DNA of 63,693 bases, filler included, from Craspedostauros australis (taxonomy: Eukaryota): the NCBI GenBank assembly GCA_030167865.1. It is 7 parts of 7 records of this genome, joined end to end, with 100 filler letters (N's around TTAATTAATTAA, not from the genome) between each part and the next. Parts side by side here need not be neighbours in the genome. Positions count along the whole stretch, not along the records: positions 22,756 to 41,454 come from JALAGF010003841.1; 6 more parts are not named here. One strand, given 5' to 3'. Position 1 is the stretch's first letter; each line of letters begins with the position of its first letter. The translations under genes and the position numbers were made by a program. The notes beneath the pieces were generated by a model. It searched no databases, had not been told where the DNA came from, and saw only the letters and a program-made list of their open reading frames with translations. Shown in pieces: positions 23,732-49,200 of this stretch.

Positions 23732-23847
23732 NCGCTGCGGTCCTTGCGGGAGATGCGCTTGCTGCTCTCAGCATCCGCGCGTCCCATGGCGCCGCTGATG
23801 ACCAGCGACAGCTGGGTGAAGAAGCTGATGGATCCTTGGAAGTGCAT
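22779..23847 (-). CDS. First exon of the secreted Cys-rich glycoprotein that continues at 1159-2513
   Basis: ATG at 23847 gives the signal-peptide-like MHFQGSISFFTQLSLVISGAMGRADA, in frame with the sequence shared with 1-953. The donor site corresponds to 22778. Confidence 0.75.
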
Positions 23848-25166
23848 GGTGTCGTTTGTGTGCTTTGCTTTGCGTTTGCAGGTTCTTGTCTCTGTGTGTT
23901 GGATGTACTTGCGATCTGTGCTCTTTCGATTTTGTGTCAGAGTGTTGCTCCACTGTCTTGCTCTTGAGAGATGGCTGTATCCGCAAACAAGTGCGCCGAG
24001 ATGCGCGGATTGTGGTTTGCCAAACAAGAACGGATGTGCGTGCACTTCCGCTAGTTGTCTTGGCGTCGCACCAACGTGTATCTTCCGCTTTGTCCATCCA
24101 AAGAAAAGCACAAGGTGACAACAGATCCTTCGTCGGAGTTGTTGGCCGCACGCGTGCTCGTGTGCTCCAAGTTGCGCACAACATCACACACAAAGATCGC
24201 AAAGCTCCCGAGCCAAACGGAGTCAACGGCACGAGCGAAACACGAAACAAAGAACAACAATCACGGACAAGGAGGATCACAGAGACACGACACTTTGAAC
24301 ACAGGTATCCACCACGCGCTCGCACGGCGATCGGAAATTGCGAGGTTTAAATTTTGATATTTCGGTGATGTCCTGGTGGCGACAAACGACAGAGTGCATG
24401 GCGTGATTTGTCATTGGAACTTCCAGCCATCGGCATCTTGCCCAATCAATCAACGCACAAACATCCTTGACGTTGTCGAGCGTCAGATTGTGTCGCTCGG
24501 CAATCTGTTCTCTAACGGCCGAATCTTCTTCAGATTCGTCAGTTTCGTCAGCAAACTTCCTCGTTGTTCTCAGAGGCGCGACTGTGTTGCAACTCGCTCA
24601 AAGATATTTGGGTCAGACGCGCAAACACCAGTCCGTGTCGTTTGGTTTCTCTGCGTACGACATCACACGTAGAACGTTGCGGTAATTCACTATTATCTGT
24701 ATAATCTGATATCATCGAAAAACTTGTTGATTGTTCTTTGAATTGGACGTTATTTATGACGCTACCGTTGTTGAAGTCGATCGAATCAACTATTTGAACA
24801 CAACATGGGAATCCGGAATCTCGGAAGCAGATCGAAAGCTGATGAACCCAGCAACAGGTGAAGAATGCTGAAACAACCACCAACAAACGCCACGATACGA
24901 GTGGAGACAACTACAACGATGACCATGGCGCAAGCCGCCGTGGTGGGTGTTTGGACAATGCGGATTCCGGACGACGGCGGAAGGAAGCCCACACAGAGAT
25001 CTTTTCCGGTTGGATAGCACACAACCCACCACGCCACACCAACAGCACCAACAACAGCATATAAATACCCACAGGCATACTCTGGAGCAGCGACCATCGC
25101 AGTGTTGGACGCATCGATTGAGATCAACAGCTACTTAGACGACGATACGAACAAGACAGAGACATC

Positions 25167-27416
25167 ATGTCGATGAAGCCAGGCATCATCCTTCTGCGAG
25201 AAGGAACCGATTCCTCGCAGGTGAGCGTTATGCCTGGGATCATGTTGCGGCTGTTACTTGTGTTGCGTCTGTGTCATGCGTCTGTGCCATGCGTGTGCTT
25301 CCGTAATGCTGATGCTGATGCTGATAGCATTCACAGTGAATGAGCGAGGGGAGGGGACGAATGAGATCAAGGCTGAGACTGGGCTTGTGGATGGCCAAAA
25401 GAATGACGACAGCAATGACAACAACATGAACACTTGCGATTGCGATGGCCACGATGGTCTTGTTGCAACTGCATGACTCAATCGCACAATGCATGTCTCC
25501 TGCAAGTGCCATGCAGAGGGCACGACACTCGACTCCATTTATCTACCCGCACACTCACACTCACATCCAAACCCGCCGCCCCAATGCAATGCACTCCAAT
25601 GGAATTCAATGGAACGGAATAATACACACCATTATGCCATTTGCGCTAAAAATCGAAATCGAATGTCGGAATCATGACAAAGTAGGGAACACCACAACTC
25701 GTCAGCAACATCAATGCCTGCCAGGCTGTCGCCGACGCCGTCCGCACAACCCTGGGACCCAGAGGAATGGATAAGTTGGTGGCAGGCGGAGCCACGCAGA
25801 ACACGGTCACCATCAGCAATGACGGTGCCACCATCATGAAGCTCCTGGAGATTGCGCATCCCGCAGCCAAGACTCTCGTGGATATCTCCATGAGTCAGGA
25901 CATGAGCGTCGGGGACGGAACTACTTCCGTCGTTCTGCTCGCCGCCGAGTTGCTCACCAAGTGCAAGCCGCTGGTCGAGGAGGGCATGCCACCGACACGC
26001 ATCATGCAGGTGCTGCGAGAGACGGGCCGCAAGGCTGTGGCGCACGTTCAAAAGTGCGCGGTGGCACCCAACCAGGAAACCATGTTGCTCAAATGCGCCA
26101 GCACGGCGCTCAACTCCAAACTCATCTCCAGCCACCAGGACCTCTTCTCCCCCATGGTGGTGAAATCAGTCACGCAGTGCTACGAAGCCGGTAAGATCGA
26201 CCACGTCAATGACCTGGTCGCCATCAAGCAGGTCCCAGGTGGTGATGTGCGATCCTCCTTCATGGTGCCCAGCGGTGTTGCGTTCCCAAAAACATTCTCG
26301 TACGCTGGATTCGAGCAGATGCCAAAGCATTTCACAACTCCCAAAATTCTGCTTCTCAACGTCGAGCTAGAACTCAAGAGCGAGAAAGAGAATGCCGAAG
26401 TGCGAATCTCCAATCCGGAGGATTACCAATCCATCGTCGATGCAGAATGGCAGGTCATATACGACAAGCTCGATCAGTGCGTTGCGTCGGGTGCCAACAT
26501 CGTGCTGAGCAAGCTCCCCATCGGTGATCTTGCCACACAGTACTTTGCGGACAGAGGCTTGTTCTGTGCAGGCCGCGTTCCGGATGCCGATCTCAAGCGT
26601 GTGGCGCAGGCCACCAACGGCGTGGTGCAAACCACGACAAACGGTCTCACAGAGTCCGTTCTGGGAGCATGCGGAAAATTCGAGGAGAAGCGGGTGGGCG
26701 ATGAACGATTCAACCTCTTCACGGAATGTCCTTCGCATTTGACGTGCACCATCGTACTTCGTGGAGGAACTGAGCAATTCATCGCAGAATCGGAGCGCTC
26801 CATCCATGATGCCCTCATGGTGGTGCAGCGGGCCATCCAATCAAAGACCATCGTTGCCGGAGGTGGTGCCATCGAGATGTCGATCGCCGAGCTGCTCCGC
26901 CAGTTCGCGCTCACGGTCGAAGGCAAGGAGCAGCTGATAGTGACGGCATTCTCAAAAGCGCTCGAAGTGATCCCCCGACAGCTGTGTGACAATGCCGGTT
27001 TGAGCGCAACCGACGTGCTGGCCGCGTTGAGAAAGCAACATGCGGCGCACTACAGGCAGCAGCAGGACAGCGGCACAGACGAATGCTGCTGGTACGGTGT
27101 GAATATTGAGGAGGGCGGCATCGTCGATACCTTCGAGCTTGGCGTTTGGGAACCCAGCGACAACAAGTTCCATTCCCTGGAGGCCGCGACGGAAGCCGCT
27201 TGCGTGATTCTGTCAATCGATGAGACTGTGATCGCGCCACCATCGCAAGACCCAGGCGCGCAGGCCACCGGCATGATGAGCGGAGGCGGGGGCGGCAACG
27301 CGGGAGCCATGAGCTCCATGATGGGCAACGCCATGGACATTGCCAACAGCAGCGGACCAAGAAGCGGGCAGCTCGGACCTGGCGTGTCCTACATGAAGGG
27401 CAGAGGTGGAGCCTAA
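25167..27416 (+). CDS. CCT7: T-complex protein 1 subunit eta; join(25167..25220,25686..27416)
   Basis: Exon 1 MSMKPGIILLREGTDSSQ|GTGAGC, intron ending TAG at 25685, exon 2 GTPQLVSNINACQAVADAVRTTLGPRGMDK. GDGTTSV motif and eta-specific KTFSYAGFEQ and IGDLATQYFADR. Confidence 0.95.
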
Positions 27417-27800
27417 ACCATCCGTACGATATGTAGCATCTTGCTTTGCTCTCTCTAGAGGTGTAGTCGTACGGGTGCTGCATGACCATGAGTCGTTGAC
27501 GGCATCGCGGAGTAGAGGAGGATCGCATCTCGCTTGGTTGGGTCTCTCGTTGTCATTGTTGTTGCCAACAATCGTGTTTGGATTCTCACAGTGTCTGCTG
27601 CCGATTCGTCCGACCACAGTTGCCATGACTGGAGGCGAAAAATTGTGCCCAACAGTCATTTGCCGCCAACGGTCACATCGTGTTGATGACGGCAAGAAGG
27701 CAAAATGCGACAGAGTTGGAGCAAGAACGAAAGACAGGAGCATCCGCAGAGAACACAAACAAAGAGAGAAGAGGAGAGAGACATCCAACTGGAACCGACG

Positions 27801-29941
27801 ATGGGATCGCAAGACGAAGGCAAGGACAAGGCGACCGACCCCGGCAGCCGCCGCGCCAAGCGACAACAGCGCCGTCGCGACAATGCGGTCGCGGCCAACA
27901 AGCAGCCCACGCAGATCGTGTGCACGAAGAGCGCGCTGTACAGCACGAAGAACTCCGTCGAGCTGGGGGCGGTGGTGAGCATGGGCATCGTCGCGCTGTA
28001 CCTCTTCGGCTGTCTGGGATCGCTGGTGCACGTCCCGTCCATCCACACGGGACGCATCATCGGCGCCAACCTCAACGTGCCCGTGCTGCAGCGCGATGAG
28101 GACATGCTCTTTGCTCTGCAGGAGGGCACCGTCACGCTGGGCGATCGCGGTCTGTCCGGCATTCCGACGGCCGTGTGGCCCGTTTCTCTGCGCGATGAAG
28201 GCGAGGACCGAGTGGAGACCATCCCGCATCCCGCCGACGACAACGTCCAGCTCACGGTGCCCCGGTTCTGGTCCAAGCCGCTGCACAACAACAAGCTCTT
28301 CACGCGGGAGCAGGCCATGGCCGTCGGGTCGTGCGCCACGCCGGATCCCAACACCGGATCCTTCGTGCGCGGCACGGACTGTCCTGCCGATCAGCGCACC
28401 ATCTTTGTGGCGATCGCGTCGTACCGTGATTTCCAGTGCCGACAGACGGTGGAATCCATCTTCACGAGAGCCTCGAATCCGGATCGCATACGAATTGGTG
28501 GGTATTACTGTTGCATGTGCTTGTGATATACATGTGATGGAATGGAGTGACATGGAGATGCCGCGACTGCGGATCATGAGGGCAAATGCTTTCTCACCGA
28601 ATCAAGATGATCCAAGTGGCAAGCGAGCATCGTCTGCCAATTCAACCATGCCATACCATACCATACCATACCATATCTATTTGGGGAGTGACAGTCCCTG
28701 CACACGACATCACGCACAGCACAGCACACAACATGACAATCATTCTGACTCTTTGATTTCAACTTGTTTGCTTTCGCTCTCGCACACGCACGCACACACA
28801 CACACTTCTCCTTGGTCGATCTTTGCTGATTACGCTATCCCGCAATACTATCCGTACCTTCCCAACTCGTCGCATCGCCTTGTTACCATCCCTTCAATCC
28901 ATTCAATGAGCAGGCGTTGTCGACCAGATTGTGGCTGGAGAAGACCCCGTGTGCAACGAACCGATGAGACCGTGCGAAGAGGCACCGCAGCAGGCCCTGT
29001 GCAAGTACCAGGATCAGGTCGACGTCTTCCAGATGGAGGCCCAGCTCTCCGTCGGTCCGGTCTTCGCCAGGCACATCGGACACCGCATGTACCGCGGAGA
29101 GTACTATTCGACGCAATCGGATGCGCACGTCACCTACACCAAGGACTGGGACAAGGATATCATCGATCAGATGGAGCAGAGTCACAATGAGATGGCCGTC
29201 CTCACGACCTACCTCACGGACGTTCAGGGATCCATCTCGCCGGAGGGAAGATCGTTGCGGAAAACAAGACCCATCATGTGCAACACGTACTACGAGGGCG
29301 GTGTCCAGGGCATGCACCTGCGACATGGAAGTCAGCCAGAGCGTTTCCCAAGCATCCGCGGATCCCCGCAGCTGGCACCGTGGTGGGCTGCCGGATACTC
29401 CTTCTCGCGAGGCCATTTCGTGGTCAACGTTCCATACGATCAATACCAGCCGATGATCTTTCAGGGTGAAGAGATGAGCATCGGTATTCGTGGATACACG
29501 ATTGGGTACGACTTTTACGCGCCGGAGCGCTCGGTTTGCTTTCACCACTACGCCGTTGGCAAGAATGCCGCGGTCCGCAACAAGGTCAAGCACTTTTGGG
29601 AGAATGGAGACCGCTACAAGGGGGTCGGAAAGAAGGCCATGGCTCGCTTGCTCGGCATCGTTCACATGAACCCCGAAACGCCGCGATCGTCGTGGGATCA
29701 CAAGGAGGAGGATATGTACGGCATCGGCGCGGTGCGAGAACCGGAGCAATTCTACAAGATCTTTGGAATCAACGTCGTCGACAAGGAGACGCAGGGCCAT
29801 CTCTGCAAGTTCGTGGATGACAATGGTCGCATGCACAAGGAGTTCACAAAGTATCTGCGACAGGACGGAATGGGAATCGATTACACGAACATCCACTCCG
29901 AATGGGTCGATCCCACGCCGAATGAGAAGCACTTCAAGTAG
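27801..29941 (+). CDS. GT60-family alpha-GlcNAc transferase (Gnt1/Gnt2-like) with N-terminal TM; join(27801..28497,28914..29941)
   Basis: TIFVAIASYRD and RIRIG|VVDQ across an in-frame phase-1 intron (28498 GT..AG 28913). Also GPVFARH, QSDAH (DxH), WAAGYSFS, PYD and FQGEE. Confidence 0.9.
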
Positions 29942-30259
29942 GAGCAGGAATTAATGCGACAGCAGTGGTGATGGGCGTACGATACGGCATTGTGCAAATG
30001 TCTTCCCTGGGTCGCACTCGGAGTAGGCGTCAGATGATTTCCCATGCGACCACGCCAGAGCATATCTTGCGGAGCAAACAGCGACGGGACACAAACAGCC
30101 ACATTGGTTCGTCTGATGCATTGAACAATCCAATCTAATCCATATTTCAACGCAACGGATACTTGTGTCATCTATGATACGACCCGGTTACTCTAGGAAG
30201 CGTGCATCTGAGCCGTAATGACTTTTATGACCTATCTGAAACTTTGCACACAGATAGAC

Positions 30260-30312
30260 CTATAGGTGGAGGGCTACTGTGTGAAATATTGCCCCCCCTA
30301 CGAGCATTATTA
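30260..30312 (+). repeat. Left terminal inverted repeat (53 bp including the outer CTATA)
   Basis: CTATAGGTGGAGGGCTACTGTGTGAAATATTGCCCCCCCTACGAGCATTATTA. Confidence 0.92.
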
Positions 30313-31295
30313 TAAAAGTTATAAGCATCTAGGCTAACCTCTACACGCCGGCCGCGCCACAAGATACCCTCGCAGTGGCCCGTCTTAAATTATTTTAGAG
30401 TCGACTCCGATATCGCCCGTCAAGCCAAGGATGTTGTGGGTTTAGAAGACAACATGTGTCCAAACCTGGATGGCTTGGCTTTTGAACGTCGTACACATGG
30501 TCGGAAGACAGTCTCAGTCGACGTTCTCCAGACGTTTTCCACACACATCTTTCCAGATCCTCGTACCGCGGATAGACGTGGAATTGCCTTCTTCAATTTC
30601 CTGGGCTTCTCGATTTCGCTTCGATCGAAGTCATCGATGTTCGAATTCCTTCTTGTGGGAAAAGGATTCTTCATTTTCGTTTCGGCTTGTGGGTTGGCAT
30701 GCTCTTTCTTCGGTTGTGCGGACGTTAACAGTTGAGAATGTCCCATCTGTCCACAACTTTCGTCTCATGCTTCCTTAAATGAACTCTTGTCTTCCTGTGA
30801 CAAATGCATACGTCGTTGACTTTGTTGCCAGAGAGGACGGGTGGCCTACCAAACGAACTGTGTGTCGAATTGATGGCTCTCGACCAGATCGATCAAGTGT
30901 CGAATTGGATTTTGGGAGGGTCTTCTTGTGTCTCTGGAGGTGGCTCTTGGGCTCCCGCTTGCAACACACAACACGTCTTGAGATGCCGAAATCATCAAGT
31001 CGTGCAGTTTGGAAGAGCCAGCCCACTGGCTGATGACAGATGTTCACACAGAGAAAGCAGACTTGTTCGCCGTCGTTCTTGTTGGGGTGGAAGCAAATGC
31101 GTTTTCGCAGTCATTTGGTCTCGTCGATCTTTTGCTATTCCACACGCAAGCACGATGTCCAACGCACTGCAACGTTCATTGAGGACGAGCGCCCTGGTGG
31201 GCTGTATTCACAACAAAGGAGAGGCATCCAACGCCGCAATACGACTACCATCGAAGCACAGCATCAACGGAACATCCGAAAGTGACATCCGAGCA

Positions 31296-31630
31296 TGACA
31301 CCCTAACATGACATCATGGCATGGCATCGCAGAATGGCATCGACGCATGACATCACAGCATGGCATCATAGAATGGCAGATCATCACGGCATGGTATCGC
31401 ACCACAAGATGGTATCACAACATGGCATCACAAAATGGCACAACGGCATGGCGTCGCCGCACAGCGTCACGGCATGGCATCACAGCATGGCATCGCAGAA
31501 TGCCATCGCAGCACAGCATCACAACATGGCGTCATGGCATGTCATCACAACATGGCATCAAGGCAGCGCATCACGGCATGGCGTCACGGCATGCCATCAC
31601 AGCATGACATCACAGCATGCCATCACAGCT
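31296..31630. repeat. Degenerate 13-bp minisatellite, consensus ~GGCATCACAGCAT, roughly 25 copies
   Basis: Recurrent catcacagcatgg / cgtcacggcatgg variants. Confidence 0.85.
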
Positions 31631-31739
31631 CTCTTATGTTGGATGATTGACAGACAGTGTGGGATACAATCCTCGCTGTTCAGTCATTTGACATGCAGTC
31701 AGATCGCCCTGCCCAATCTGAACCCAGCACGCGATCGCA

Positions 31740-34700
31740 CAACACACTTGAGCACACAGGGTGAGAGATGAAGGGATGATGGTGAATGTTGTCCTCGTCA
31801 CCGAATGAGTCCACTGGCGTTCGAGCACTCAACACAACATCAACAGAGCTCAGCACATGAAGCATGCTGTGAGAGACGCAGAGGGGCTGTTCGATGTAAC
31901 CCCCATCGCGAAGTGGATCTGTTACCCAACATCACGACGATCCTCAGCATGGCACAGCACATGCAAGCACATTTTCAGAGAGGGAGGCAAGGTGTGTGCA
32001 ATGCCATCTCCAACACAGAACATCACACACCACAACAAGGCCAGAGATGGGTGGGCGCGGGCGAATGTGATCGTCACAGCAAGATGAATCCGTTGCGGTT
32101 TGATCACCCTGCACACACATGAACACAGCACATCCAACGTGAGCACATGGCGAGAGATAGAGGGGTGCTGTGATAGGCGATTCTCTCCTTGGAGCGAGAG
32201 AGTCTATCCTGAGTTTGGATCACGTTGCATGCCATCAATGCAGACCAGCATAGGCCACTCCATGCAAACCAACCACACGTGACTACAAGGTCAGAGATGG
32301 ATGGACGTTATTGCATATGATCACCGCACAGCGACTGGAGATGCGGTTGGGTCACCCTACGCAGCACCAACATAGCACAGTTGGCACATCACATTTGAGC
32401 ACACATGGTCGCGTGTGGAGAGGCGCTCTCTGATACAATCACAACTGCGAAGTGGATCACCCTGCATATGGATCACACTGAGCATGGATCACCCAGCACA
32501 GCCTGCCACAACACATGACATCAAGCAAAAGACTGAGAATGGGGGACACTGTTGGATGCGATCCGCGATGGGCAATGAATGAGTTCGTACAGAGGTCGCC
32601 ACGCAGAGGCCACCATGCATATCACATCCAAGTACATGGTCGGATATGGAGAGGCACTCTCGGATGTCATCACAACTGCACAATGAAGGATCAACCTGTG
32701 CACCATCCATGCAGCCCATCACATGCGAGTACATCACTCGCGGAAACATCACAAACGAGCACATGGTCACAGAGGGATGGGCGATGTCGGATGCCACCTT
32801 CGCTGCAACGTAAATTCGCTGTGCTTGGACCGCTCCGCGCACTGCCAACACATAATCAACATCCGCGAGCACATGTTCGAAGATACAGAGACGAGTTCGG
32901 ATGTGATTGTTGCTGCAAAGTGAACCGCGCCACGGTTGGAGCACCCAGTGCGACACACTCAAACACATGGTGGGTGGTACATGGAGGGATGCTGCAAGCT
33001 GTTGATGTGATCCTCACTGCAAGGTGAATCCAGTGTGAGTTGGATCACCCAGCGCGCACATCGAGACAGGTCACCACGCACAAGCATTGGGTCGGAGATG
33101 CAAGGGCGCTGTCAGATGTGATTGTCACTGCAAAGTGAATGGCCTTGCGCATAGATCACTGTGCACACTGCCAAAAAATGCCATCACATGCGAGAATGCT
33201 AGGAACGAGCACATGTTTGGAGGCGGGTGGACACTGCCAGGTGCCATCTCCGCTGTGAAATGAATCTGCAACGGTTGAATCACCATATGCAACATCGACG
33301 CAGCACACCGCACACGAATGCAGGGTCAGAGACGGGTGAACGCTGTCCCATGCAATCCTTGCTGCAAAATTATTCATCTGCGGTTGGATCATCTGCGGTT
33401 GGATCACCTGACCCACCACCAGCACAAGCTGTCACGCGTCAACACATCACATGCGAGTGCCTGGGGAGAGATGGAGGGATGTTGTTGGATACAATCTCCA
33501 TTGTGCTCCCATTATCAGACAGACACACCAATGCGGCCAACATAGGCCAACATAGCATGCGCAAGCAGAAGACCAGAAATGGAGGGATGCTGTCAGATGT
33601 GGATATGATCCTCACTGCAGAGTGAATCTACTGTGCATGGATCATCTTGCGCACACACCAACACAGCCCACCACACGCCAGCATGTGGTCAATTGGATGG
33701 ATGCGGTGGGAGGCCAACGCACTGCATAAGAAATCACTATGCGTTTGGATCACTTTGGACAACATCAACACGTGACGTCACACGCAAACCTTGTCACACA
33801 CGAGCGCAGGGTCAGCGAAGGTGGGGTGCTATCAGATGTGATAATGACTGCAGAGTGATTCATTCTATGGTTGGATCACTTGGCACGCGCCAATACTGCA
33901 GATCATGCGGGGATGCTGAGTCAGAGATAGATGGCCGCCATCGATGCCATCAAAACTGCAAAGTGGATCCGCTGCGGTTGAATTACCCTACGCGCCACAC
34001 ACCAACACAGCAGAATGCACACGAGCAGATGGTGAGCCACGGAGAGCCGATGTCGGATGCGACCCTCCCTGCTCAGCGCCAGGCCATGCGGATTGCATCG
34101 CTGCAAGCAACATTGACACAGCACAGCACACCACAAGCGAGCATATGGTGATAGATGGAGAGATGCCTGTTTGATTTGATCGTAATTGCGATGCGAATCA
34201 CTGTGCACATGGATCGCCAGTGCGGCATCTGCGCGGCACAACACGGCGGAGCATATGGTCAGAGAAGGAGAGACGCTGTCGGGCGTGATCCTCACTGCGA
34301 GGGGAATCGCTTCGCGGTTGGATCACTCCGCGGTTGGATCACTCCGCGGTTGGATCACTCCGCGGTTGGATCACTCCGCGGTTGAATCACCGGGCGCATC
34401 ACAAGCGAGCACATGATGGGAAATAGACAGACGCCGCCGGACGTGACCGTGACTGCAAAGTGAATCCGCGGTGCATGGGTCATCCTGAGCACGACCGGCA
34501 CAGGCTGTTGTATGTGAATCCGTCACCCACAAGTACAGCGCCAGAGATGGATAGATGCGGTGGGATGTGAATCTCATTGGGCAACGAAGTATCCTGCGTG
34601 CGGATCCTACCCACACAACCCCAACACAGCCAATCACACGCGATCCCATTACACGCGAGCAGATGGTGATAGAAAGAGAGGTGCTGCAGCCAGAGGTGGT

Positions 34701-34880
34701 TCTCATGACGAAGCGAATCTGCTGCGGTTGGATCCTCCAGCGCATCACACACCATCAAAGTACATCAGAGCACATCACAGCACATCAAGCACGCATATGG
34801 TGAAAGATGGAGACACATTGCCGGATGCCGATCAGGGCTCTTCAATGAATCGGCATGCGCTTGCGTCGATGGCAGCACAT
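31740..34880. repeat. Degenerate tandem array of ~27 units, mostly ~110-125 bp
   Basis: Consensus ~GAGCACATGGTCAGAGATGGAGRGACGCTGTCGGATGTGATCCTCACTGCAAAGTGAATCCGCTGCGGTTGGATCAC plus an AC-rich linker. Anchors at e.g. 32141, 32757, 32867, 33207, 33802, 34023, 34139, 34249, 34407 and 34657. Confidence 0.85.
34313..34390. repeat. 16-bp tandem repeat (CGCGGTTGGATCACTC) x~5 nested in the array
   Basis: Four perfect copies from 34313 plus one variant. Confidence 0.95.
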
Positions 34881-35369
34881 GGACACGATACGAGCACGAT
34901 GGCACCATGCAGCACAGCAGGATGTCGCCCCAAAGCACGTCAACACAGTGCAATGGCACAGTGCATTCGTTGCTGAAACGTTGACCCATGTGAGCATCGC
35001 ATGGTACCAAAGCTTAAGAGAAATAGAGCAGATGGAATCGTGTGGAGTGGCTGTGGATTCAAAAGGAGAAAATGGCACTGCGATAAACCCAGAAACGAAA
35101 ATGTCATGGATGTTTTAGTGGCAGCACAGACGACACAAGGACAACACAGCGCTCATCGCCGTTGCGCGGCGCCTGGCACTCCGCACATCACAACGCAACG
35201 CATCACATTCACCCCCTTTCTCCACAATCAATCCATTCGTCAAGCGAAAACACGAGAACAACAGCACCGCCGCTGCCACCACCGCCACCACCAACAACAA
35301 CATCATCATCATTGACACGGCCAACCGTTCTCGCGTTGACTTGGTAGATAGGACTCTTCTCTCTCGGAT

Positions 35370-38300
35370 GGTACGATACGAGTCGACAGTCCAAGCTGTG
35401 CCACGACAGCAGAAGTGAACGCAGAAGTGGCATCAGCCACAGCGAAGACCACAGATGGTACCGTCGGAACTCCGGCTGCTGCGCAAGACAACAGCAACAC
35501 CAACAATGGCACGAACGCTAACATGGATAATGACATGGATAACGACGTGGACAACACAGAGGGAAACGCTGCAAACGACAGCATTCGCAAGAAGGAAAAA
35601 CGAGGGGTGCTGGGATCATCGCGCAGGCGCGCCTCCTCTTTCGTTTACCTGACGTCCAAGGAGCATATCTTCTTGCAGGAACTTTTGATGCGTGGCATGG
35701 ACAGCAAGATCGAACTGGTATGGGAGCAACTGCATCAGGGGGAGCTCATGTCCATGTCATCCATTTCTCACGTTGCCACCGCCAAGTCAGCAGATGATCA
35801 ACCAATTGGCGCAGATTCCACAAAAGCAGCCAATGGCATCAATCATGATGCTGACTCCACCGCTGCTACTACTACAACTGCTGCTACTTTGCAACTGCGA
35901 CTTTGGCTGACGTGGAGTTGAAGGCAAACACAAGGCCACCGCTGCCAAGACTCCCAAAGCCCATATCATTCGCGTCCAATGCAGATGGTATTCAAAACGG
36001 TGATGTGAGTGGCATGAATTCAAAAGGTTCCGTCCGCAAGAAGATGGGCAGGTTCACGTCAGTGGGATCTGCCTGTCGCAACCCGGTGCTGCAGCAACGA
36101 CATCAGCAGCAACTGGATGGCAAGAACTCGCCGCACATGCTTCTGTGGAAGGCGCACGAGCAAGGGCTGGGGACTTTGGTCACGACGTCGAATGCGACGG
36201 GTGCGGGGACGCTGTTCGTTCCAGCCGATGTGCCGCCACATCCCTGGCTGCAGTCGCAGGCACAAGCCAACCAAAGGGACAAATCGGCATCGACCAACCA
36301 ATCGGCGTCAACCACAGCAACGCCTCCGACCATCATCCAGCCATTCCCATCCATGCTCCTGATTCCGCAACGCCGACGAAACAGCAGCCACGGCAGCAAC
36401 AGCAACAGCTTGAGCAGCTACTACAAGTCCGCCGCTGCGCCAGGAGCCAACAAGAGGCTGTCATTCTGCGGCAGTGTTCACAGCACCACCTCGGCCGCAT
36501 CATCGTTGACCCCCGATGACATGCATCGCTTGCATGCTGCAGCGCACGCGATTTTCCGCAGCAAGGTGCAACGCAGATCGATCAGACTCTCTGCCTCCGC
36601 CACTCTGCAGCAGAGGTTGCAAATGCAGCAGCAAAAGCAACAACAACAACAACGCGACATCCCAGCTGCAAAACTCAGACGCAAATATCAGCGTTCCCAA
36701 TCGCTGACCGTCGCTGCAGCATCCTTTGCAAACAAGCCAATGGCAGCATCGCGGCTATCGTCAATGCCCAAGAGATCGTCAATGTCAAAATCACAGTTTG
36801 GTGCCCTCGCATCTCAGCCAATGCCGCTGGCCCGACGTGGCAGGACGAAGTCAGTCACCTTCTCGGAGGGAACAAACGATGGTGCCATTCCGACGCCAAC
36901 TCCAACCTTTCGCAGGCCGAAGCTTCTGACTCGCAGACAGTCGGACACATTGGTCTACGCCTCGTCGTTGTCATTGCCAATCGACGATGCTCCTGTGCCA
37001 ACGTCGCAACCAAGCACAGCTCGTCTTGCAAGAATTGCATCTGACGCAGAATCCATCGCATCCTTTGCCAGCATCTGCCCGGCCACCGCAATTCGAAGCG
37101 ACTCATCCACGACGGTGGCGAGCATTGGCAATACGAGCATCCCACCGATCTAACCGGCAACAGCGCTGCGATCGCAATCGACAGCCACGGTCGATAGTTT
37201 CCCCCCAATCCCTCCAGTCAAGGCGATGCGCGGCAATCCGTCGCAACCGAGGCCAGCATCCCACCCACCCAACTCGCGACGGCCATCCAGTCCAAATCAA
37301 CTGCCACCAACAACACGTTCCCGCCGCTCCCACCAGGCGTTGTGATGCGAGGCGAGTCAATTGCCACCAACGCGACGAATGCGACCATCCCATCCATTCG
37401 TCATGCGACAGCGTTGCGTTCCCAATCCACCATCTCGACGGACAGCAACTTGCCTTGCTTCAGAATTCGGCACTGGCAACATCGCCACATGTTCAATCAA
37501 CCGCGGCCACTGAGACATTCCCTCCCATCCAACCCACAACGGCCATGCGGTCCGAATCGTCCACCGCCACTTTTCACGATGCAGCAGCACAGCAATCATC
37601 TGGAGTCGTCAACCAAGACGACATCCCAATCACAGCTCCCACCACAACCACGCAGCTGTGCTTCCGCGATGCTGTCGTCACCATCCCACCGCCACCATCC
37701 GTCAACGCAGCAGAGATCCTGCGCGCGCAGTACGAGGCTTCGGATCAGGTGGCTATGGCATGGGCGACGGCCGGCAACATGTCGTCATTTGCAACAAGCA
37801 CATCGCAGTCCTCGCAAACCAACAGCCAACACGATCAAGAACAGCAGCAACAAAATCCCCCTCTTGATCATGTTCCTGCTACCATTCCGACTGTCCCAAC
37901 TGCGGCCACAATGCCGAGCGCCGCATCGACTGTCACAACCATCGAGTCTGCTGCAACGGCAGATTCTTCAATGAATGTCGACACCATGAGTCAAGCTTTG
38001 CCTTCGTCAACACCATCAGACGCCAAGATGCCTTCCCTCACCACGGAAGAACATGATGCGCCAACGGGGGCATCCGACACGCCCACAGCCAAAGAAGAGC
38101 CCACCAACACCTGTCCTGTTGCGCCTGGCATCAAGAAACAATTACGACGGCGAGGGTGTGGAAGTCAGCGAAAGTCCGTCGAATATGTTGCAACAGCAGC
38201 AGCAGCATCAGGGTTCGTTGCAGGCAACGGAAGATGCCACAGCACCTGGCCAAGACGACGATGGTCAAGATCAGCAGCAGGAACCAGTGGTGCTGGATTA

Positions 38301-39860
38301 CACTGATGTGGATCACAGCGCCGCCGTCGAAAACGCTGGGTCAAGCGAAGGGGCCTATCATCACTGGCAGCAACAGCTGCAACAACGGGCGCAGCAACAA
38401 CCTCCGCAGAGCATCATCTGGTTCTTGCGACTGTTGAGCCATGACAACACACCCATGGATCAGAGCCATGGCAACCTTTACCTGTCAACATCATTTGATG
38501 AATCGTCATGCTGCCACTACAAAGACAGTTTCCAAATCAAAACGCTTCGTTCGACCAAGATGCGCATGGTGACATCTTTCGCGTTTGTCGTGCCGTGTCG
38601 CACGATAACGATCAGCCGTTCATCCCAGAGATCATCGCCACAACGTCTGCACCAAATCTGGAGATGTCGAAATATTGCCCACATTATCCCTTGGATGCCT
38701 CCACTGTTGGCACGAAGCGCGATCCTGAAGCCCTCAGCCACTTTGATATGCAGCATGCCCACTACATGCATGCTGAGGACGGCCGCGGCAATGGCGATGC
38801 TGATGACAACAACGATGACGATGACTACCAGGACTCTTGGGATACGTCATCGGTGCTAGACATCGAACGGTTCGACAGCTGGAACATCGTGAAGGACGAT
38901 TACGCAAGCGGTTACGGAGGTGGTGGCACGTTGGGATTTTCTATCCTTGGCACATCGGCAGGCGATGTGGCAGCGTCACCTCATGCCCCAAGCCCTCCGT
39001 TGATGGATTGGCTTCAAGGATTCTTTCCGTTTTGCAAAAACAAGAAAACTTCTACCTGAAGTACTGCCTCGTCCGCAATGGTGCATCCCTTGGGTCCTTC
39101 CTTCAGCATGCAAGAGGGGCTCAGTACACAATGCTGGCGCTGGAGACGGTGGATGGCTAAGTGTTCAGCGCCTTCACCGGCCAGGCATGGCGCAAGACAC
39201 GGAAGTACTTTGGCACGGGCGAATGCTTCCTGTGGCGGATGCGCAATCACCGCTTGACGCCGAAGAGCCGATCCGTTCTGAAGCAGGCGCAGCTGGAAAG
39301 CGAGATCGATGTCTTCCCGTGTGCCGGTGCCAACGACGGCATCCAGCTCCGCACGAACGATTGACTTGCGGTTGGATGGGGCACCCCTACCGATAGCACC
39401 GGCCCCATGCCAATTCCCACCATTCCATCCTACTCCTCTGCTCACAACTTCTACGACGATGACGATGGCGGACAAGAAGCAGGCGAAAAGAAAGAGGAAT
39501 ATCCACACACAGCCACCAACTACACATCAACCCACCTGGACGCCATTGGTGGTCCAGCGACGGGTAGTAGTGGCCTCGACACCAACACCAACACCAGCAA
39601 CGACGACAGTGATGACGCACAGAAACAAAGGCGACAGCCGAACCGGGAATTTGGTTTGGTCATCGAAGGAGATTGTCTGCTTCATGGAACCACACGTCCG
39701 TGTCTGACATTCAACAGCCCGTTGCTGTCGAAGATGCACAGCAACGGACCTAGTTCAAAATCGCCAATCTCGAACTCTGGACGTGAACGCCGTGCGCTAC
39801 AGAAGCAGAGGCTGAGAGACTGAGCTCTCGCGATCGATTCTGGAACGCCACGCAGCGTGG
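35370..39860 (+). pseudogene. Decayed TLDc-domain (OXR1/NCOA7-like) gene with a long low-complexity N-terminus
   Basis: Pieces in shifting frames: SPPLMDWLQGFFP / ENFYLKYCLVRNGASL..ALETVDG* / VFSAFT..W....KYFGTGECFLW / QLRTND*LAVG / FGLVIEGDCLLHGTTRPCLTFNSPLL / FKIANLELWT. Stops at 39158 and 39362; frameshift near 39040. 5' boundary approximate. Confidence 0.85.
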
Positions 39861-41401
39861 CCGTAGGCACGAGCTATTACAAGCAATGTGGACTACACTG
39901 CATCAAAAGTACTGGTGCACTGCTTCAGAGAGGTCCGCCAGGACGACCGGTCCGGATAGTGCCCCGCAGGTGCGGCTACGGGCGACATGACAACCCGTTC
40001 AGCGGATTCATCGTTGAGACTGTTAATAGCAGTATTTTGCCAAGCAATCCTGGGCACTCGCACAGTGCCAACAATACCAATCACTCAGATTCATAGCATA
40101 CTTCCCTCTCAATAGCTAAGTATTGGTTTTCTTGTGGTTATACTCGTCGTTGTACTCCTCCTCCGCAACAGAGCGATGCTCCGGCAGTTCATGTGATGAA
40201 CGTGATGCTCACTGTTTCGTGCCAACTCCCTCGTGTTTTTTAGAACGAAGATGGGAAACATCATACCTGTATAATACGAGTATGAGCAAGACCTAGGCAC
40301 AGAATCCCACAAGGGGGATGGATTGGACAGGCGTACTACTGCACCTCGCTCACTCGGCAAACTGATAGCATTCTCGAGCGCTATCGTCACACCATTCGTT
40401 ATTGCGTTCAGGTTCGCGCAAGCGAGACGCACCAAAACGGAGCCTCGAAGCGCATTGTTGGCATGGATTAGGTTGCAGGTGTGACGTCTGGCCACATGTC
40501 GGGCTGACGACCACAGCCAAACAAGTGATTTAATTGGCTATTCTACGTTGGCAGCATTGTCCGATTGACATTGCTGACGTCACGGTGCGATGAACTCGAC
40601 AAATTCAAACCGAGACATTGAATGCAAGCGTTATATTCGAAATAGATAGATACATCCGGCGACGCAGAGACATGTCAAAACCGGTATCAGACCGTAACCA
40701 AGCGAAACATTCAAACTGAACGAAATTCGAATCCTCACAAACAGCGAGCTTGTGGCAACCTTCGATATGAAATACTAGAAGTTATACCAAATACCATGAG
40801 CTGTTCCAACTCCAACACCAAGGGAGCATTAAAGAACTTCAGGGTTGAAGTAATTGATGGCATCAAATAAGACAGGAACATGCCGAAAGTGGATAACTTG
40901 TCGAGGTCCGGCATGTGGTCGGTTTGCAGGTTCGACCACAGGAGGGTCAGAGACAGGGGGCTTTTGCTTGAGTTAGGACGACTAACCGCAGAGAGCAAGG
41001 TTGGTGAATACCATCTCAAGGGGTGCATTGTATCCACTTCACTGCTGCAACAGGCCGCAGTGCCACTGACGCGAGTTTGCCCATGTCAAGCTGAAGGCAT
41101 CATCCCGCCGAATCGTTGGAAGTTCAAAGATGACCCAAGGGTGTTCTGGAAGCCGGCAAGGCGAATGACACAAGTGTAGCTTCAGGTTTTGCAATTGTAG
41201 ATGTGCGGACGAGATCCCCAAACACACCCCAATGACATCAATCCAACTAGTAGCTTCAGGCTTGTCTATTTCATGAAAATCCGACAATAGGCCCAATTTA
41301 GCCCCATATCGGGAAGCAAAATGGGTGTAAAAGTGCCGTCTGTCATGCGGTACGTCAATAGTCTTGGTATAGTCCAAAATTAAAAACTTAAATATCTACT
41401 C

Positions 41402-41454
41402 TAATAATGCTCGTAGGGGGGGCAATATTTCACACAGTAGCCCTCCACCTATAG
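41402..41454 (-). repeat. Right terminal inverted repeat
   Basis: Exact reverse complement of 30260-30312. Confidence 0.92.
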
Positions 41455-43997: not shown

Positions 43998-46271
43998 ACA
44001 TAGTTCTTGGAGGGGATAGTCGTATGTGTTCCATGGATCGTGTGCGTGCCGAACATGTGTTACCTTCCTCGTTGTGGATGCAGTCCTTGGGTTTCATGTG
44101 TCCCTCTCGTGGGTGAATCTGTGGCCGACAACATCAGAATTCCATCCGACATCGACGCAGCCGACCGAATCTTTTCCCAACAACTCACTGAACGAACAGA
44201 GCCACGTTCTTGGCGGATTCCTCGGTAACAATTGGACACGGATAACGTCTGTCCAGATAACCGAGAGCCAATCGTGTCTCAACCAAGCAGGCATGACGTA
44301 AGCGGGACTCAGACCAGACACAGTCGAACCGGTCAAGGCACACACGACGTATGACCCCACTTGAGTGACGGGACCTGCAGTCGGTCCTGAGGTGCCGGCA
44401 ACATACAAGGCTTTCGACCAAACCAGTGATACATTCATAAACTAGATAAATTAAAGATACGTGGTGGGCGTTGATTTTGCTTTAATGTCTTCTTAACAGT
44501 TTTATGGACCTTTGTAGATTTACGGTCCTCTTGGTCGAATATGAACGCTGCTTCGCGATGACATGCGCACATTGACTAGTTTCTCCGACGCAAACAACGA
44601 AAAGTGCGCAGACACGTTTGGGAAAAAACCTTTTTGACGGTTTGCGCACGGAATTTGGCGTGGTGTTCAACAACGACTCAGGCCTGTGTCGTTCAGTTTT
44701 GTGGGTTGCGGCCAGTGACGTCACAAACCATGTATTGGTTTCAGCAACTGTCGTGTTGGGAACATTACCGGTACTCCCGGTAACATCCAAACACGAGTCA
44801 ATCTGAGCAGAAAACAACAAAAACTCTGCGACTGGAGGGGTTCGAGTGGCCCCAGAACTTGGGTACTGGGACACGCCGGGCTGTCCAAATTAAAGGGAGA
44901 ACCCCGCAATAGAGACTTGCCTGGGCACAATGGAGGCAGCCAGTTTCCTGAGGAATTGGGTCTTTGCAATGCTACTGTGTAGTCACTATAATCTGAATCA
45001 CACGGTTCAATATGAGAACTTCAACTGCAACAAAGCTCGGGATAAACCAGCCAAACTCTCCTTAATTCACCCCTCAATGGGATGGCTTGCTCCCGGTAGT
45101 GATACAGTCCAAGCGTATCGATTGGCTGGGATCGCCAGCCATGCCAACAAATAGCCCTCCACCCGTGCTATCGGTTTGCAGAGTGAGTGGACTGCAGTAG
45201 TACCTGCCATTGCGAGCGCCGGATTGTGGAGGAGTCTTGCTCTCTTCGATGTCACCGAATTTGTTGTGTTGGTTCCTGCCAAGAACATGATCGCGGCACC
45301 GAGACGAGGCTGGTTGGTTTGGCAGCTTCTTGTGCCACAAATGTCTTCAAGACTGTATGATGTTTTGACTTAAAGTCTCCATTGTCCACGACCGAACTGA
45401 AAGAACAGCACTCGTCTCCCTTGTGGCGCGCGTGTCGTTGAGTGGAACATCATTGTTTGTGTGTGGTTCGAGGGGGTGCTTGTTGCCGCCGTGTCCTCAC
45501 CAAAGCGCGGCTTGCAGACAATGGACGCAACCCATGGCGCTGCACACGAGTGGCTCGTATGCACATATTATATATCACAAAACCATGCACGCCATCGCAA
45601 TTCCACAGGATAGAACCCCAAGCAAGGCTCGGCATCAGACGCGAAGCGAGGCAAGAAGCAGGAGACAAGGCGAGACAGACGAGACAGGAACAGATAGAAA
45701 CGAACAGGAACGAATAGATTGTACGGAACAAACACGGAAGGTGCCACGAACCCACAAACTCCAGGCACGAGAAAGCGAAGGACGTCCTGCGCTGTCAGCA
45801 TAACCGAGACACCCAGCGCATCGAGGCAGGTGGGCTACGTGTCAGCTAGCGGCAGCCTTTGCGCACTCTCGCCGTTCGCGCTTGGCTCTGTCTTTGTCGA
45901 AAGTCCAAACCGGCTTCGGAACCAACGTCGAAGCCGACTGGAGTACTCTCTCTCTCTCTCTCTCTCTCTCCAGAATAGAGAGCATTACTCTCTTGAGTCT
46001 GCCTCGAATTGAGTTGCGGTGTTTGCCGTGTGAGACACACGCTCTGGACCACAAATCGCATTGGAGATAGACCTCACAAGGAAGGATAAGACGAAGGTCG
46101 AGCAAGCAGGAGGGCGCATGCAAGGGTTGTGAGACGCTGAAGAGACCCAACGGATCACACGACGCTGGAGTACCTGTTGCCACCGCAGATGGGGCAAGAC
46201 AAGTTCATTATCTCGGCTTGCTTTATCGAATTCCTTCTTCGAATTGTGCATCAATCATCAGCGACAACACC

Positions 46272-49200
46272 ATGCAGATGCTCGCCGTCTCTGTTGTTGC
46301 CATGATGGCCATGATAGCCATGGTGGTCACGGTGACGATGGCTGCAAGTCCAGCAGAAGCAACAGTAACGGCAACGGCAACGGAACATCCGCAGGAAGTC
46401 ACCAAGCTGACCAGGAAGATGAGGAAGGCAGCCGACACCGACGCCTTTCCACCCGTCGCCCGCAGAGACCTGGAAGATGATGGAACGTGCATCAACACCA
46501 ACACCAACGGTCCAATTCCTATCAACCAGTACGCCATTCTGACCGTTCTCGCGCGTCCCAACACCCTTGTGGACAACGCTGAGGATGCCCGCACTCTGCT
46601 GGAGACCAACTTCGTTGATGCGTACAACGCCGTGGCCAGCTGCGCCCAGAATGGGGCTTTCTACACTCTCACTGCCATGTCCATCGTGAGGTCCAGCATT
46701 GGCTCCACCTTCATCGTCACTGATCCATCCGCGAACGGCGGCCGCAGGCTGGAGGATGTGGAAGAGGCCGAAGAGATCGACTTCCTCATCCTCATCGAAG
46801 GAGAGTGTGTCGGTTGTCCCGACATTGGCGGTGGCAGCGGGCCTGTCTTTATCGACCAGATCGATCCATCTATCCTGGATCAGACTCAGCGTCGCATGAT
46901 GCAGCTGTGGCAGCATCAGGAAGGGTCTTCCGGCAAGCCAGCTACTCATACAGGTGCAACTGCGAAACCTAGCGTCAAAGCCAATCATCAGACCCAGACC
47001 CAGACGCATGCAAACACAGATGCACAGGCAAACACAGATGTAGGTAACCACCATCCACGCAGAGGCAGCGGGGCAAAGGACACCAAGCAGCGTGGAGTGG
47101 AGAGATTCGCCCTGTACGGCCTCTCCGACAATCTGCGAGATGACAACGACGACGAAGACGCAATTGGACCCTCCGCTCCATCATCACCACCACGGGGAAA
47201 GCGCGGCCGCCTCAAGCCACGGCGATTCCTTGACGGTTCGGAGGAGCACACCCACAATGGCGTCTCCTTCTCCCTTCTGCACAGACGCTCGCTCAACACC
47301 GCGATGGCAAAGAACGACAATGGCAAGGACAAGGGCAGAAGTGGTAACGACAACAAGAAGACTAAGGCCAACGGCACCGGCGCTAGTGGAGAAGGGGATG
47401 GGGATGGCGAGACACCCGACGGACCAGCTCCCAAATCAATGCAGGGCGGCAAGGGCACCAAGGCATCCATGTTCTCAGAACCCACGTCGGCTCCAACTGA
47501 TTCCACCGATCTCAACGGACCAGCGCCTGGACCGGACACCACGGCAGCACCATCCGGGAAGGGCAGCAAGATGGGAGCACCTCCCTCCACGCCTTCCGAC
47601 TCGCAGAAGCAATCCAAGACGGGATCGCCCATGCCGGGAGGCACGAGCAACAACACCAAGATGTCCAAGTCGGGAAATGGTCCAAATGAGTGCATTTGCT
47701 TTCCACCAACCATCTCTGCCTTCGTCAACGAGTACGATGCCGTCATCCAAGCCACCAACTCTCCCACAGGCGGCAGACGTCTCCAGACCGCCACCACCAC
47801 TGGCATCGACGTCATCCTCTCTCTCGTCCTCGTGGACCCCTCCAGTGCATGCACCGCCGACGACTTCGAGACACGCACCGCCATCGTCCTCATCACCATC
47901 CAGATCGACACATCACTGTCTTCCACGGCCGGTGGTGGTCTCACAGACGGACAGGTGGAGCAGTTCGAGGAGGATCTCAAGAACGAATACAACGCGCAGA
48001 ACAGCGGCGCGCTCAACGACCAGTCCTGCGACCCCTTCTTCAGACGCGTCGCCAACGTCGAGCTGGTGCAGGTCGTCGAAGGCTACAGCCGCCGTCTCCA
48101 AGATTCCAACACGGATCCTTCATTCCACGGCCACCGCAACATGCAAACCTCGACTGACTTCAGCTCCTCTATTGGTGTCTCCACCTACATCTCAATCTAC
48201 ACCTTCTTTTGCTTCAGCTGCGAATCGGGCACGCTGCTCTACAACGACGTCGACTTTGTCACGGTTCGTCGCCGCCGTGCGCTCAACGAGGAAGGTAATC
48301 CCTACGATGACAGTGCTGACAACAGCAACGCTGACAACAGCAACATCGAACGCGAATATGGCTACTCATCCTGGACGGCCGAGGAGTTCACCCCATCTCA
48401 ACACCACGAGGAAGACCCACGCTTTGCCGACATCCTCAATGCTATCAACGCCCACAAGGCGAAGGAAAGTGCATATGCAAATGCAGGTGAAAATGCTGGA
48501 ACCAGAACCGGCTTCCAACCCGAAGACAGCCCATTCGGTCCGCCGCTCAATATCAACAACCATCGCCAGCTGCAGTCCGCCATCGCCCACCATCGCTCTC
48601 TGCAGGGTGACCCTGACGACACCATCAACCCAGACATCGACTGTCTCTGCAGTGCCAACGCAACGCAAGAAGGTGTCACGGAGCAGCAGATCCTCAACGC
48701 TCTCAACGAGACTCTCCAGATCAACAACACCGACCCCATTCTCTTCATCACCAACGTTCAGGAGGTGCAGGAGATCGACTGCTCCGACACCGTCGACGAC
48801 GAGCAGGTGTTCGACATTCGCATCGCCATCGAGCTCCTGGTCTGCGAGGACGATCAGCAGGTTTCACCTCTCTCCCTCGACGACCCTCGCGTCCCAGAGC
48901 TCGAGGCCACCTTCGCCACCACCTACAACGACCTGGTCGCCGAGAGATACTGCGATCCCTTCTTCCGCGTCATCAACAACGTCACCTTCACGGGCATCGT
49001 CACGGACGGATCCACGGTCGTGCCGGAGGAGATCAGCGGATCTATCGCCGTCAGTATCGAGGCCATCGTCACCCTGCGATGTCGTGGATGCGATCCGGCT
49101 GTCACCACGCTCTATACCGAGGGGCCCTTGCTCGCCACCATGTCAGGTGGTAGGCGTTCTCGCAAGATGCAATACACCGATCATGCCTCCAATCGTGGTG

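What the first reader, a model, noticed from the sequence alone, without database searches (positions are those of the whole stretch)
30260..41454. 11.2-kb TIR-bounded, transposase-less element carrying a captured host gene (Pack-type element)
Seen: perfect 53-bp inverted repeats 11.2 kb apart with TATA at both outer edges. Inside are a 13-bp minisatellite, a 3.1-kb array and a TLDc pseudogene, but no DDE transposase I can recognise. The TIRs are identical while the cargo is heavily decayed. Known: Pack-MULE and Pack-CACTA elements capture genes in plants. Inference: a recently mobile non-autonomous element moving old cargo, driven in trans. The ends fit a TA, AT or TATA target duplication, not the 3-bp or 8-9-bp type, so the superfamily is unclear and may be undescribed in diatoms.
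Basis: partly seen in the sequence, partly recalled or inferred. Interest (0 to 1): 0.78.

Follow-up and report, generated by a model that had tools for sequence, protein, structure and literature searches.

The report
Sola3-type transposon carrying dead host gene
An 11-kb cut-and-paste transposon has lost its own transposase gene, picked up a now-broken copy of a host gene, and spread to several places in the genome; this kind of gene capture is known from plants, animals and brown algae, and what is new is mainly the transposon group (Sola3) doing it.

Summary
The 53-bp repeat is the inner part of a 132-bp TIR starting at 30181 (GACCCGGTT). The contig break at 41454 cuts off the right TIR. 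TATA is internal; the target duplication is 4-bp NTAN (19 of 19 ends). Ten flanked family ends sit at unrelated sites.

The interior has no transposase. It carries a whole-CDS TLDc gene copy, with resident relatives lacking TIRs (C1547, C5594). Two stops and a frameshift are shared with another element copy, so that copy spread already broken.

The genome holds many transposases (130 matches) with GAC/GAG ends and NTAN duplications. They match a published Sola3 HMM consensus and fold like Mos1/integrase. One intact 1,325-codon transposase frame is joined, across a 1-base gap, to the element's own left-arm sequence: a probable progenitor.

No empty site was found, and this copy's own TSD is unread. 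Pack-type elements are known, including giant non-autonomous ones in Ectocarpus. This scan noted a Pack-Harbinger in another diatom. Verdict: new variant of a known kind.

The parts
30177..30180 (+). Left 4-bp target site ATAC (NTAN); matching right copy not assembled
30181..30312 (+). Left TIR, 132 bp, begins GACCCGGTTAC; 0-2 differences among 10 family ends
   Evidence: loose end at 30181 in run X1
30239..30252 (+). AAAC-N3-[G/C][C/T]ACAYA motif also seen at a similar depth in TIRs of transposase-coding families (4 of 9 ends tested, this one included); candidate transposase-binding site (inferred, no shuffle control)
30310..30313 (+). TTAT: empty site of a nested Sola3-type element (GAGCCCG ends, about 88-bp TIR) that sits here, flanked TTAT/TTAT, in the C5683/C6500 copy
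30313..31250 (.). Left subterminal arm, non-coding or decayed; present in C5464, C6500, C678, C1353, C1133
31272..31629 (+). 13-bp minisatellite; similar arrays (66-78%) on other contigs
31851..35030 (.). Degenerate 110-120-bp array and its end; 34504-35030 recurs (92-97%) in C1504/C643, where it leads to the 3' end of a Sola3 transposase gene instead of the TLDc gene; junction at 35030
35146..40327 (+). Captured host segment: 5' flank, whole CDS remnant (35403-39866) and 3' flank of a TLDc-domain gene; likely start ATG reads ACG, with several frameshifts and stops
39038..39439 (+). TLDc domain remnant with two stops (39161, 39362) shared with copy C6162
40328..41401 (.). Right subterminal arm, origin not found; present in C5306, C6162, C6127
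41402..41454 (-). Right TIR, inner 53 bp only; outer 79 bp and flank lost at contig end

Best explanation
A non-autonomous Pack-type DNA transposon that depends on Sola3 transposases. SHOWN: 132-bp TIRs, 4-bp NTAN target, several unlinked copies, no transposase, whole TLDc gene copy with resident relatives, intact Sola3 transposase ORFs with like ends in the same genome. INFERRED: a Sola3 element built as TIR - right arm - transposase - array - left arm - TIR had its transposase gene replaced, between 35030 and 40327, by host DNA holding the TLDc gene (gap repair or template switch). The cargo then lost function, and the element went on being cut out and reinserted at NTAN sites by a transposase made elsewhere, the best candidate being the C133/C5507 protein. 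Each move needs intact ends, so the TIRs stay nearly identical while the interior drifts and recombines among copies.
For: Ends: 10 flanked family ends at unrelated flanks. NTAN at 19 of 19 ends found by BLAST rather than by pattern. Complete transposase-coding elements have 4-bp duplications: C66 ATAC/ATAC, C5047 TTAA/TTAA; the nested element has TTAT/TTAT with the window as empty site. 3 of 3 right-type family ends with a flank match a left flank (chance 3-7%), and the C5464/C5306 pair shares a private TIR variant. Termini identical over 9 nt with a 27-end family, 5 of whose ends lie beside a transposase. Transposases: 130 matches; invariant D-D-E/D; model pLDDT 91.9, closest to the Mos1 catalytic domain, Z 10.9, rmsd 3.4, 171 aligned. 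Sola3 HMM consensus of PMC5751038 matches gap-free at 15 of 26 positions from the first Asp, and again at the s-d-n-a-x-c block, with D1-D2 spacing 84 against 84 (C66) and 85 (C5507) (compared by eye). Progenitor link: C5507 (1,325-codon open frame) overlaps C643 100% over 656 bp; C643 and C1504 run into the element's array end, with no GA[GC]CC-type terminus between. Cargo: donor-like C1547 and C5594 have unique outer flanks without TIR; pN/pS in the TLDc core is 0.22 for C5594 and 0.85 for the window. TIRs differ 0-1.5% between copies against 1.7-12.8% for interior regions (binomial P about 0.003-0.005).
Against: No empty site for 2 of 2 family flanks searched, and none in the one run laid. 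This copy's right flank is missing. The one unassigned outer-TIR contig end (C6551) abuts the break exactly but would give TTAT, not ATAC; it fits C1133 instead. All family pairings are across contigs, and left- and right-arm relationships are discordant, so recombination or misassembly is involved. The progenitor link crosses a single-N join at C643:811, right after a microsatellite. The 5' end of C5507/C133 is unassembled, so its own TIR was not seen. Terminal positions 1-11 differ at 2 sites from the nearest transposase-bearing family, failing the Repbase one-mismatch heuristic. The Sola3 match is by eye, not an hmmsearch.
Confidence: 0.8

Rival explanations
1. Pack-type and Sola3-type, but not derived from C5507: the C643 join is a misassembly, and another Sola3 transposase in the genome (for example the GACCCGGTTG family) moves it.
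For: Single-N join after a microsatellite; no TIR seen for C5507; 9-nt terminal identity with the GACCCGGTTG family.
Against: C643 and C1504 agree 100% over 934 bp, and no other terminus lies between stop codon and array. Six left ends against at most five right ends leave room for autonomous copies.
Confidence: 0.25
2. Capture by two neighbouring TIR elements mobilised together with the resident gene between them (the Pack-CACTA model), not replacement of a transposase gene.
For: Model described in PMC8903248 (passages read); left and right arms are unrelated beyond the TIR; the right arm's origin is unknown.
Against: No inner TIR remnants in the element; donor flanks carry no TIR in the stretches fetched; the left arm ends mid-element at 35030, where the transposase-linked contig carries on.
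Confidence: 0.15
3. A Kolobok-type element (TTAA, RR..YY ends) or one from an unrecognised superfamily.
For: GA...TC ends fit RR..YY; Kolobok is reported in a diatom (PMC9587614, passages read).
Against: Only 2 of 10 flanked family ends are TTAA; the transposases with these ends lack C/DxxH and match Sola3.
Confidence: 0.04
4. Assembly artefact, or two independent short elements around resident DNA.
For: Fragmented assembly (6,734 contigs) with overlapping contigs; mosaic divergence along copies.
Against: The window copy is gap-free in one contig; the TIR-left-arm junction recurs in 4 other contigs and the right-arm-TIR junction in 3, with different flanks and mostly 4-13% divergence.
Confidence: 0.04

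Closest known systems
Sola3 DNA transposons (Sola superfamily)
   Same: 4-bp TSD, DDD-type transposase, TIR length within 11-1124 bp (PMC10741241, passage); transposase matches the Sola3 HMM consensus (PMC5751038 supplement, parts 69, 70, 72, 73 read).
   Different: Target is NTAN and ends are GAC or GAG; the textbook Sola3 TTAA target and GAG ends are recalled from Bao et al. 2009, which is not held. The focal element has no transposase and carries a host gene.
Giant non-autonomous KDZ / EnSpm / Sola-1 elements of Ectocarpus (PMC12477816, section 5 part 2 and passages read)
   Same: Stramenopile, over 10 kb, nested insertions, genes unrelated to transposase, mobilised in trans, likened to Pack-MULEs.
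   Different: Sola3, not Sola-1; here the cargo has an identifiable resident parent and is dead.
Pack-TYPE elements of plants (PMC8903248, abstract and passages) and multicopy Pack-TIRs of animals such as Ssk-FB4 (PMC8277862, passages)
   Same: Non-autonomous TIR element, captured host coding DNA with a parent locus, further transposition.
   Different: Neither main text contains 'Sola'. Animal Pack-TIR captures have a median of 224 bp, against 5.2 kb and a whole CDS here.
Kolobok (PMC9587614, passages)
   Same: 4-bp TSD with central TA, RR..YY termini.
   Different: TTAA-specific and bears C/DxxH; neither holds here.

Membership tests
Pack-TYPE / Pack-TIR | TIRs at both ends | tested here: met
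   132-bp TIR; inner 53 bp seen at the right end, full TIR on 3 other right arms
Pack-TYPE / Pack-TIR | Target duplication around this copy | tested here: inconclusive
   Right flank missing; 3 of 3 other right ends match a left 4-mer across contigs, chance 3-7%
Pack-TYPE / Pack-TIR | No transposase | tested here: met
   HMM best E 0.63; tblastx and tblastn give no significant hit
Pack-TYPE / Pack-TIR | Captured host coding DNA with a parent locus | tested here: met
   C1547 (935 open codons) and C5594 (intact TLD, E 1e-26), unique flanks, lower pN/pS; which is the direct donor is unsettled
Pack-TYPE / Pack-TIR | Transposed after capture (multi-copy, empty sites) | tested here: inconclusive
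   Cargo-bearing ends at 5 different flanks (window, C5464, C5306, C6162, C6127), but no empty site in 2 of 2 searches
Sola superfamily | 4-bp TSD | tested here: met
   ATAC/ATAC, TTAA/TTAA, TTAT/TTAT in related transposase-coding elements; NTAN at 19 of 19 ends
Sola3 (partner transposases) | RNase H-like DDD/E domain matching the Sola3 profile | tested here: met
   By-eye match to published HMM consensus, 15 of 26 identities and D1-D2 spacing 84/85; fold like Mos1, Z 10.9. Sola1, Sola2 and Zator profiles were not read for comparison
Sola3 (focal element) | Repbase heuristic: same TSD length and at most 1 mismatch in terminal positions 1-11 | tested here: not met
   2 mismatches to the GACCCGGTTG family, 3 to C66. 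This lowers formal membership; it is filed as Sola3-dependent, probable
Sola3 (focal element) | An autonomous copy with the same TIRs | tested here: inconclusive
   C5507 ORF joined to left-arm sequence through C643/C1504, but no TIR on those contigs
Sola3 | GAG termini and TTAA target (recalled) | not testable with these tools
   Source paper not held; observed ends are GAC (focal) or GAG (others), target NTAN
Kolobok | TTAA-specific TSD and C/DxxH signature | tested here: not met
   2 of 10 ends TTAA; no C/DxxH in 2 of 2 transposases
Tc1/mariner | TA dinucleotide TSD | tested here: not met
   Related complete elements duplicate all four bases

The most novel reading that the evidence does not exclude
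A still-active Sola3 lineage with relaxed NTAN targeting ferries whole genes in elements over 11 kb, and its scattered dead copies exchange sequence with the resident gene. The window is 0.7-1.4% from C1547 over 37681-38192 but 13-23% over 35281-36180, and C5594 shares two frameshifts with the window copy while keeping an intact TLDc half. Pack copies could then act as conversion templates that reshape or truncate the host gene.
Probability: 0.2. Interest if true: 0.62.

Novelty: new variant of a known kind. Interest (0 to 1): 0.42.

Why it matters
It extends Pack-type gene capture to the Sola3 group, and gives a rare case with cargo element, parent gene and probable progenitor transposase in one genome. 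That makes the capture step testable with long reads. An intact transposase that moves 11-kb cargo to any NTAN site could also serve as an algal insertion tool. The cargo is dead, so no new gene function is shown.

Tried and rejected
Empty-site searches for the window and C5464 left flanks: single hit each. One sequencing run found and laid, contigs only, no joint across the element; no RNA holder on record, which says nothing on expression. Joined flank pairs matched no third fetched locus. Pfam: no family below E 0.088 for 3 transposases and none for C5507. Single-sequence fold failed, pLDDT 32. Foldseek gave only weak integrase and Argonaute hits. CpG decay does not explain the TIR/cargo contrast: cargo CpG o/e 0.95-0.97, like host genes at 0.96-1.12. 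C901 and C6683 are diverged TIR remnants; C3490, C686 and C4430 share only 12-16 terminal nt, and none showed a transposase. The 780-bp repeat in C643 is not tied to Sola transposases in 8 of 8 loci. The 12-nt terminal pattern is not enriched much over its reversed control (43 against 29), so I relied on the long shared sequence behind 40 of 43 hits. The ESM Atlas was not searched. Majorek 2014 supplement (cut when stored, one file unsearched) and PMC10294476 supplements (21 of 33 unsearched) gave no Sola3 sequences; bioRxiv supplements are closed.
Full report
OBSERVATION. The window is a string of contigs joined by N spacers; the finding lies in contig C3841 (window 22756-41454). The 53-bp inverted repeat is perfect. 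A genome search shows that the shared sequence extends 79 bp further out: 10 ends with flanks begin at GACCCGGTTAC, window 30181, with unrelated sequence outside. One contig of run X1 also leaves the window at 30181. The TIR is therefore 132 bp, the right copy is cut by the contig end, and TATA is internal. The minisatellite, the 110-120-bp array and the TLDc remnant are confirmed.

TARGET SITE. Every end is preceded by NTAN: 19 of 19 ends found by BLAST. Two transposase-coding elements complete on one contig show 4-bp duplications: C66 ATAC/ATAC with a 157-bp TIR, and C5047 TTAA/TTAA. A related element is nested just inside the TIR of one family copy, flanked TTAT/TTAT, and the window is its empty site. 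Within the family, 3 of 3 right-type ends with a flank match a left flank (TTAA, TTAG, ATAG; chance 3-7%), and the TTAA pair shares a private TIR variant. Against this: the pairs lie on separate contigs; no empty site was found for 2 of 2 flanks; and this copy's right flank is unread. C6551 abuts the break exactly but would give TTAT, not ATAC.

COPIES. Left arms occur in the window, C5464, C678, C1353, C1133 and C5683/C6500. Right arms occur in the window, C5306, C6162 and C6127. Four left arms are identical over 194 bp, while the window and C6500 form a second group 14-15 changes away. TIRs differ by 0-1.5% between copies, interior regions by 1.7-12.8%. Divergence is patchy along the element and left and right relationships disagree, so copies have recombined, or the short-contig assembly has mixed them. 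C6162 holds a duplicated stretch across a gap.

CARGO. Segment 35146-40327 is a whole TLDc-domain gene with flanks. C1547 holds a 935-codon open 5' part with unique upstream DNA. C5594 holds an intact 3' part (TLD E 1e-26) with unique downstream DNA. Neither shows a TIR in the stretches fetched. The window copy has lost the likely start codon and has several frameshifts and stops. pN/pS in the TLDc core is 0.85 for the window, 0.59 for C6162 and 0.22 for C5594, on small counts. Two stops and the sequence at one frameshift are shared with C6162 but not C5594, so the cargo died before those copies split. C5594 shares two 5' frameshifts with the window relative to C1547, so the direct donor is unsettled.

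TRANSPOSASE. None lies in the element. The nested element's protein has 130 matches among 132 candidates in the genome. These proteins of about 1,100-1,400 codons lie between ends reading GACCCGG, GAGCCCG or GAGCCAG. A 27-end family shares the first 9 nt with the focal TIR, and 5 of its ends lie beside a transposase. Homologues are unnamed: 25 hits among 4,898 candidates and 866 representatives. Invariant D, D, E and D residues and a confident model from 115 sequences match the Mos1, Metnase and integrase catalytic cores (Z 10.9, rmsd 3.4, 171 aligned). I read four of the parts holding the Sola3 HMM in the supplement of PMC5751038 (positions 1-42 and 69-119). Its consensus aligns without gaps to C5507 at 15 of 26 positions from the first Asp and at the s-d-n-a-x-c block, with Asp1-Asp2 spacing 84 against 84-85. 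This was by eye, and other profiles were not compared. The Kolobok C/DxxH signature is absent.

PROBABLE PROGENITOR. C643 encodes a transposase C-terminus (E 4e-7) and overlaps C5507 by 656 bp at 100%. C5507 and C133 carry an intact 1,325-codon frame, 31% identical to C66 over 556 residues. Downstream, C643 and C1504 run into the element's array end at 35030, 92-97% identical, with no terminus-like motif between. This suggests that the left 4.85 kb of the element is the 3' end of an autonomous Sola3 element and that the TLDc gene took the transposase's place. Caveats: the link crosses a single N after a microsatellite, the 5' end is unassembled, and the Repbase end-matching heuristic is missed by one base.

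MECHANISM. Shown: anatomy, target, copy number, parent gene, partner enzymes. Inferred: capture by gap repair or template switch (models in PMC8277862, passages), cut-and-paste in trans, and selection on the ends at each move as the reason for conserved TIRs.

WHAT IS KNOWN. Pack-TYPE elements span the main plant superfamilies (PMC8903248, abstract and passages) and animals (PMC8277862, passages); neither main text names Sola. Ectocarpus has giant KDZ, EnSpm and Sola-1 elements, some wholly non-autonomous and gene-bearing (PMC12477816, section 5 part 2 and passages). Sola is listed for Cyclotella (PMC7466962, passage). General Sola features come from PMC10741241 (passage); Bao et al. 2009 was not available, and its Sola3 end rules are recalled. 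Nine searches (listings, with passages read for the papers named) showed no Pack-Sola3 report, but the library lacks Repbase and most subscription journals. PMC5199201, PMC3985635, PMC10294476 and bioRxiv 10.1101/2021.09.26.461848 (passages) added nothing decisive. An earlier scan note describes a Pack-Harbinger in another diatom (unchecked); nothing was on file for this genome or this transposase.

VERDICT. A real Pack-type element, most likely Sola3-dependent (0.8). New variant of a known kind; interest 0.42.

Noticed in passing
window 1-976 / 22756-23731 and 54609-55970 / 57835-59196: 100% identical long inverted repeats that start at contig starts; most likely overlapping contig ends of the assembly, not biology.
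   Followed up: no
G000, 130 places; e.g. L075 C66:79289-83854, L078, L093: Large, diverse Sola3 radiation, with many long open frames, in several TIR families (GACCCGGGTC, GACCCGGTTG, GAGCCCG, GAGCCAG), all with NTAN targets; no clear Pfam model.
   Followed up: partly
L034:2326-4063 and L044:1-4249: Sola3 element nested at TTAT just inside the TIR of a family copy; it is itself interrupted by a non-LTR-like fragment (zf-RVT, weak).
   Followed up: partly
window 27690-29941; L038:497-1534: Insertions sit just 3' of host genes: 240 bp after a GlcNAc-transferase stop (a run X1 contig ends at 30154) and about 60 bp after an alanyl-tRNA editing-type gene, where an X1 contig reads into the TIR.
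   Followed up: no
L038:3399 (C5464): Copy lacks window 31870-33912, a deletion between two array units.
   Followed up: no
L035:9537-9720 (C901); L037:880-957 (C6683); C3490, C686, C4430: Older or sister ends of the same TIR lineage with other interiors; C901's lies next to a decayed Copia-like element.
   Followed up: partly
L049:824-1613 and L162-L169: Unclassified dispersed repeat of about 800 bp, many copies at about 66% identity, sitting between the transposase stop and the array; not Sola-linked.
   Followed up: partly
window 40333-40405 / L158 about 2338-2406: A 69-bp piece just right of the capture junction matches another locus at 81%; possibly a second small donor.
   Followed up: no
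window 46071-51839 (+): Open frame of more than 1,900 codons with a signal-like N-terminus, repeated Cys-containing modules and a Pro/Thr/Ser-rich tail; looks like a secreted or cell-wall protein, cut by the contig end.
   Followed up: no
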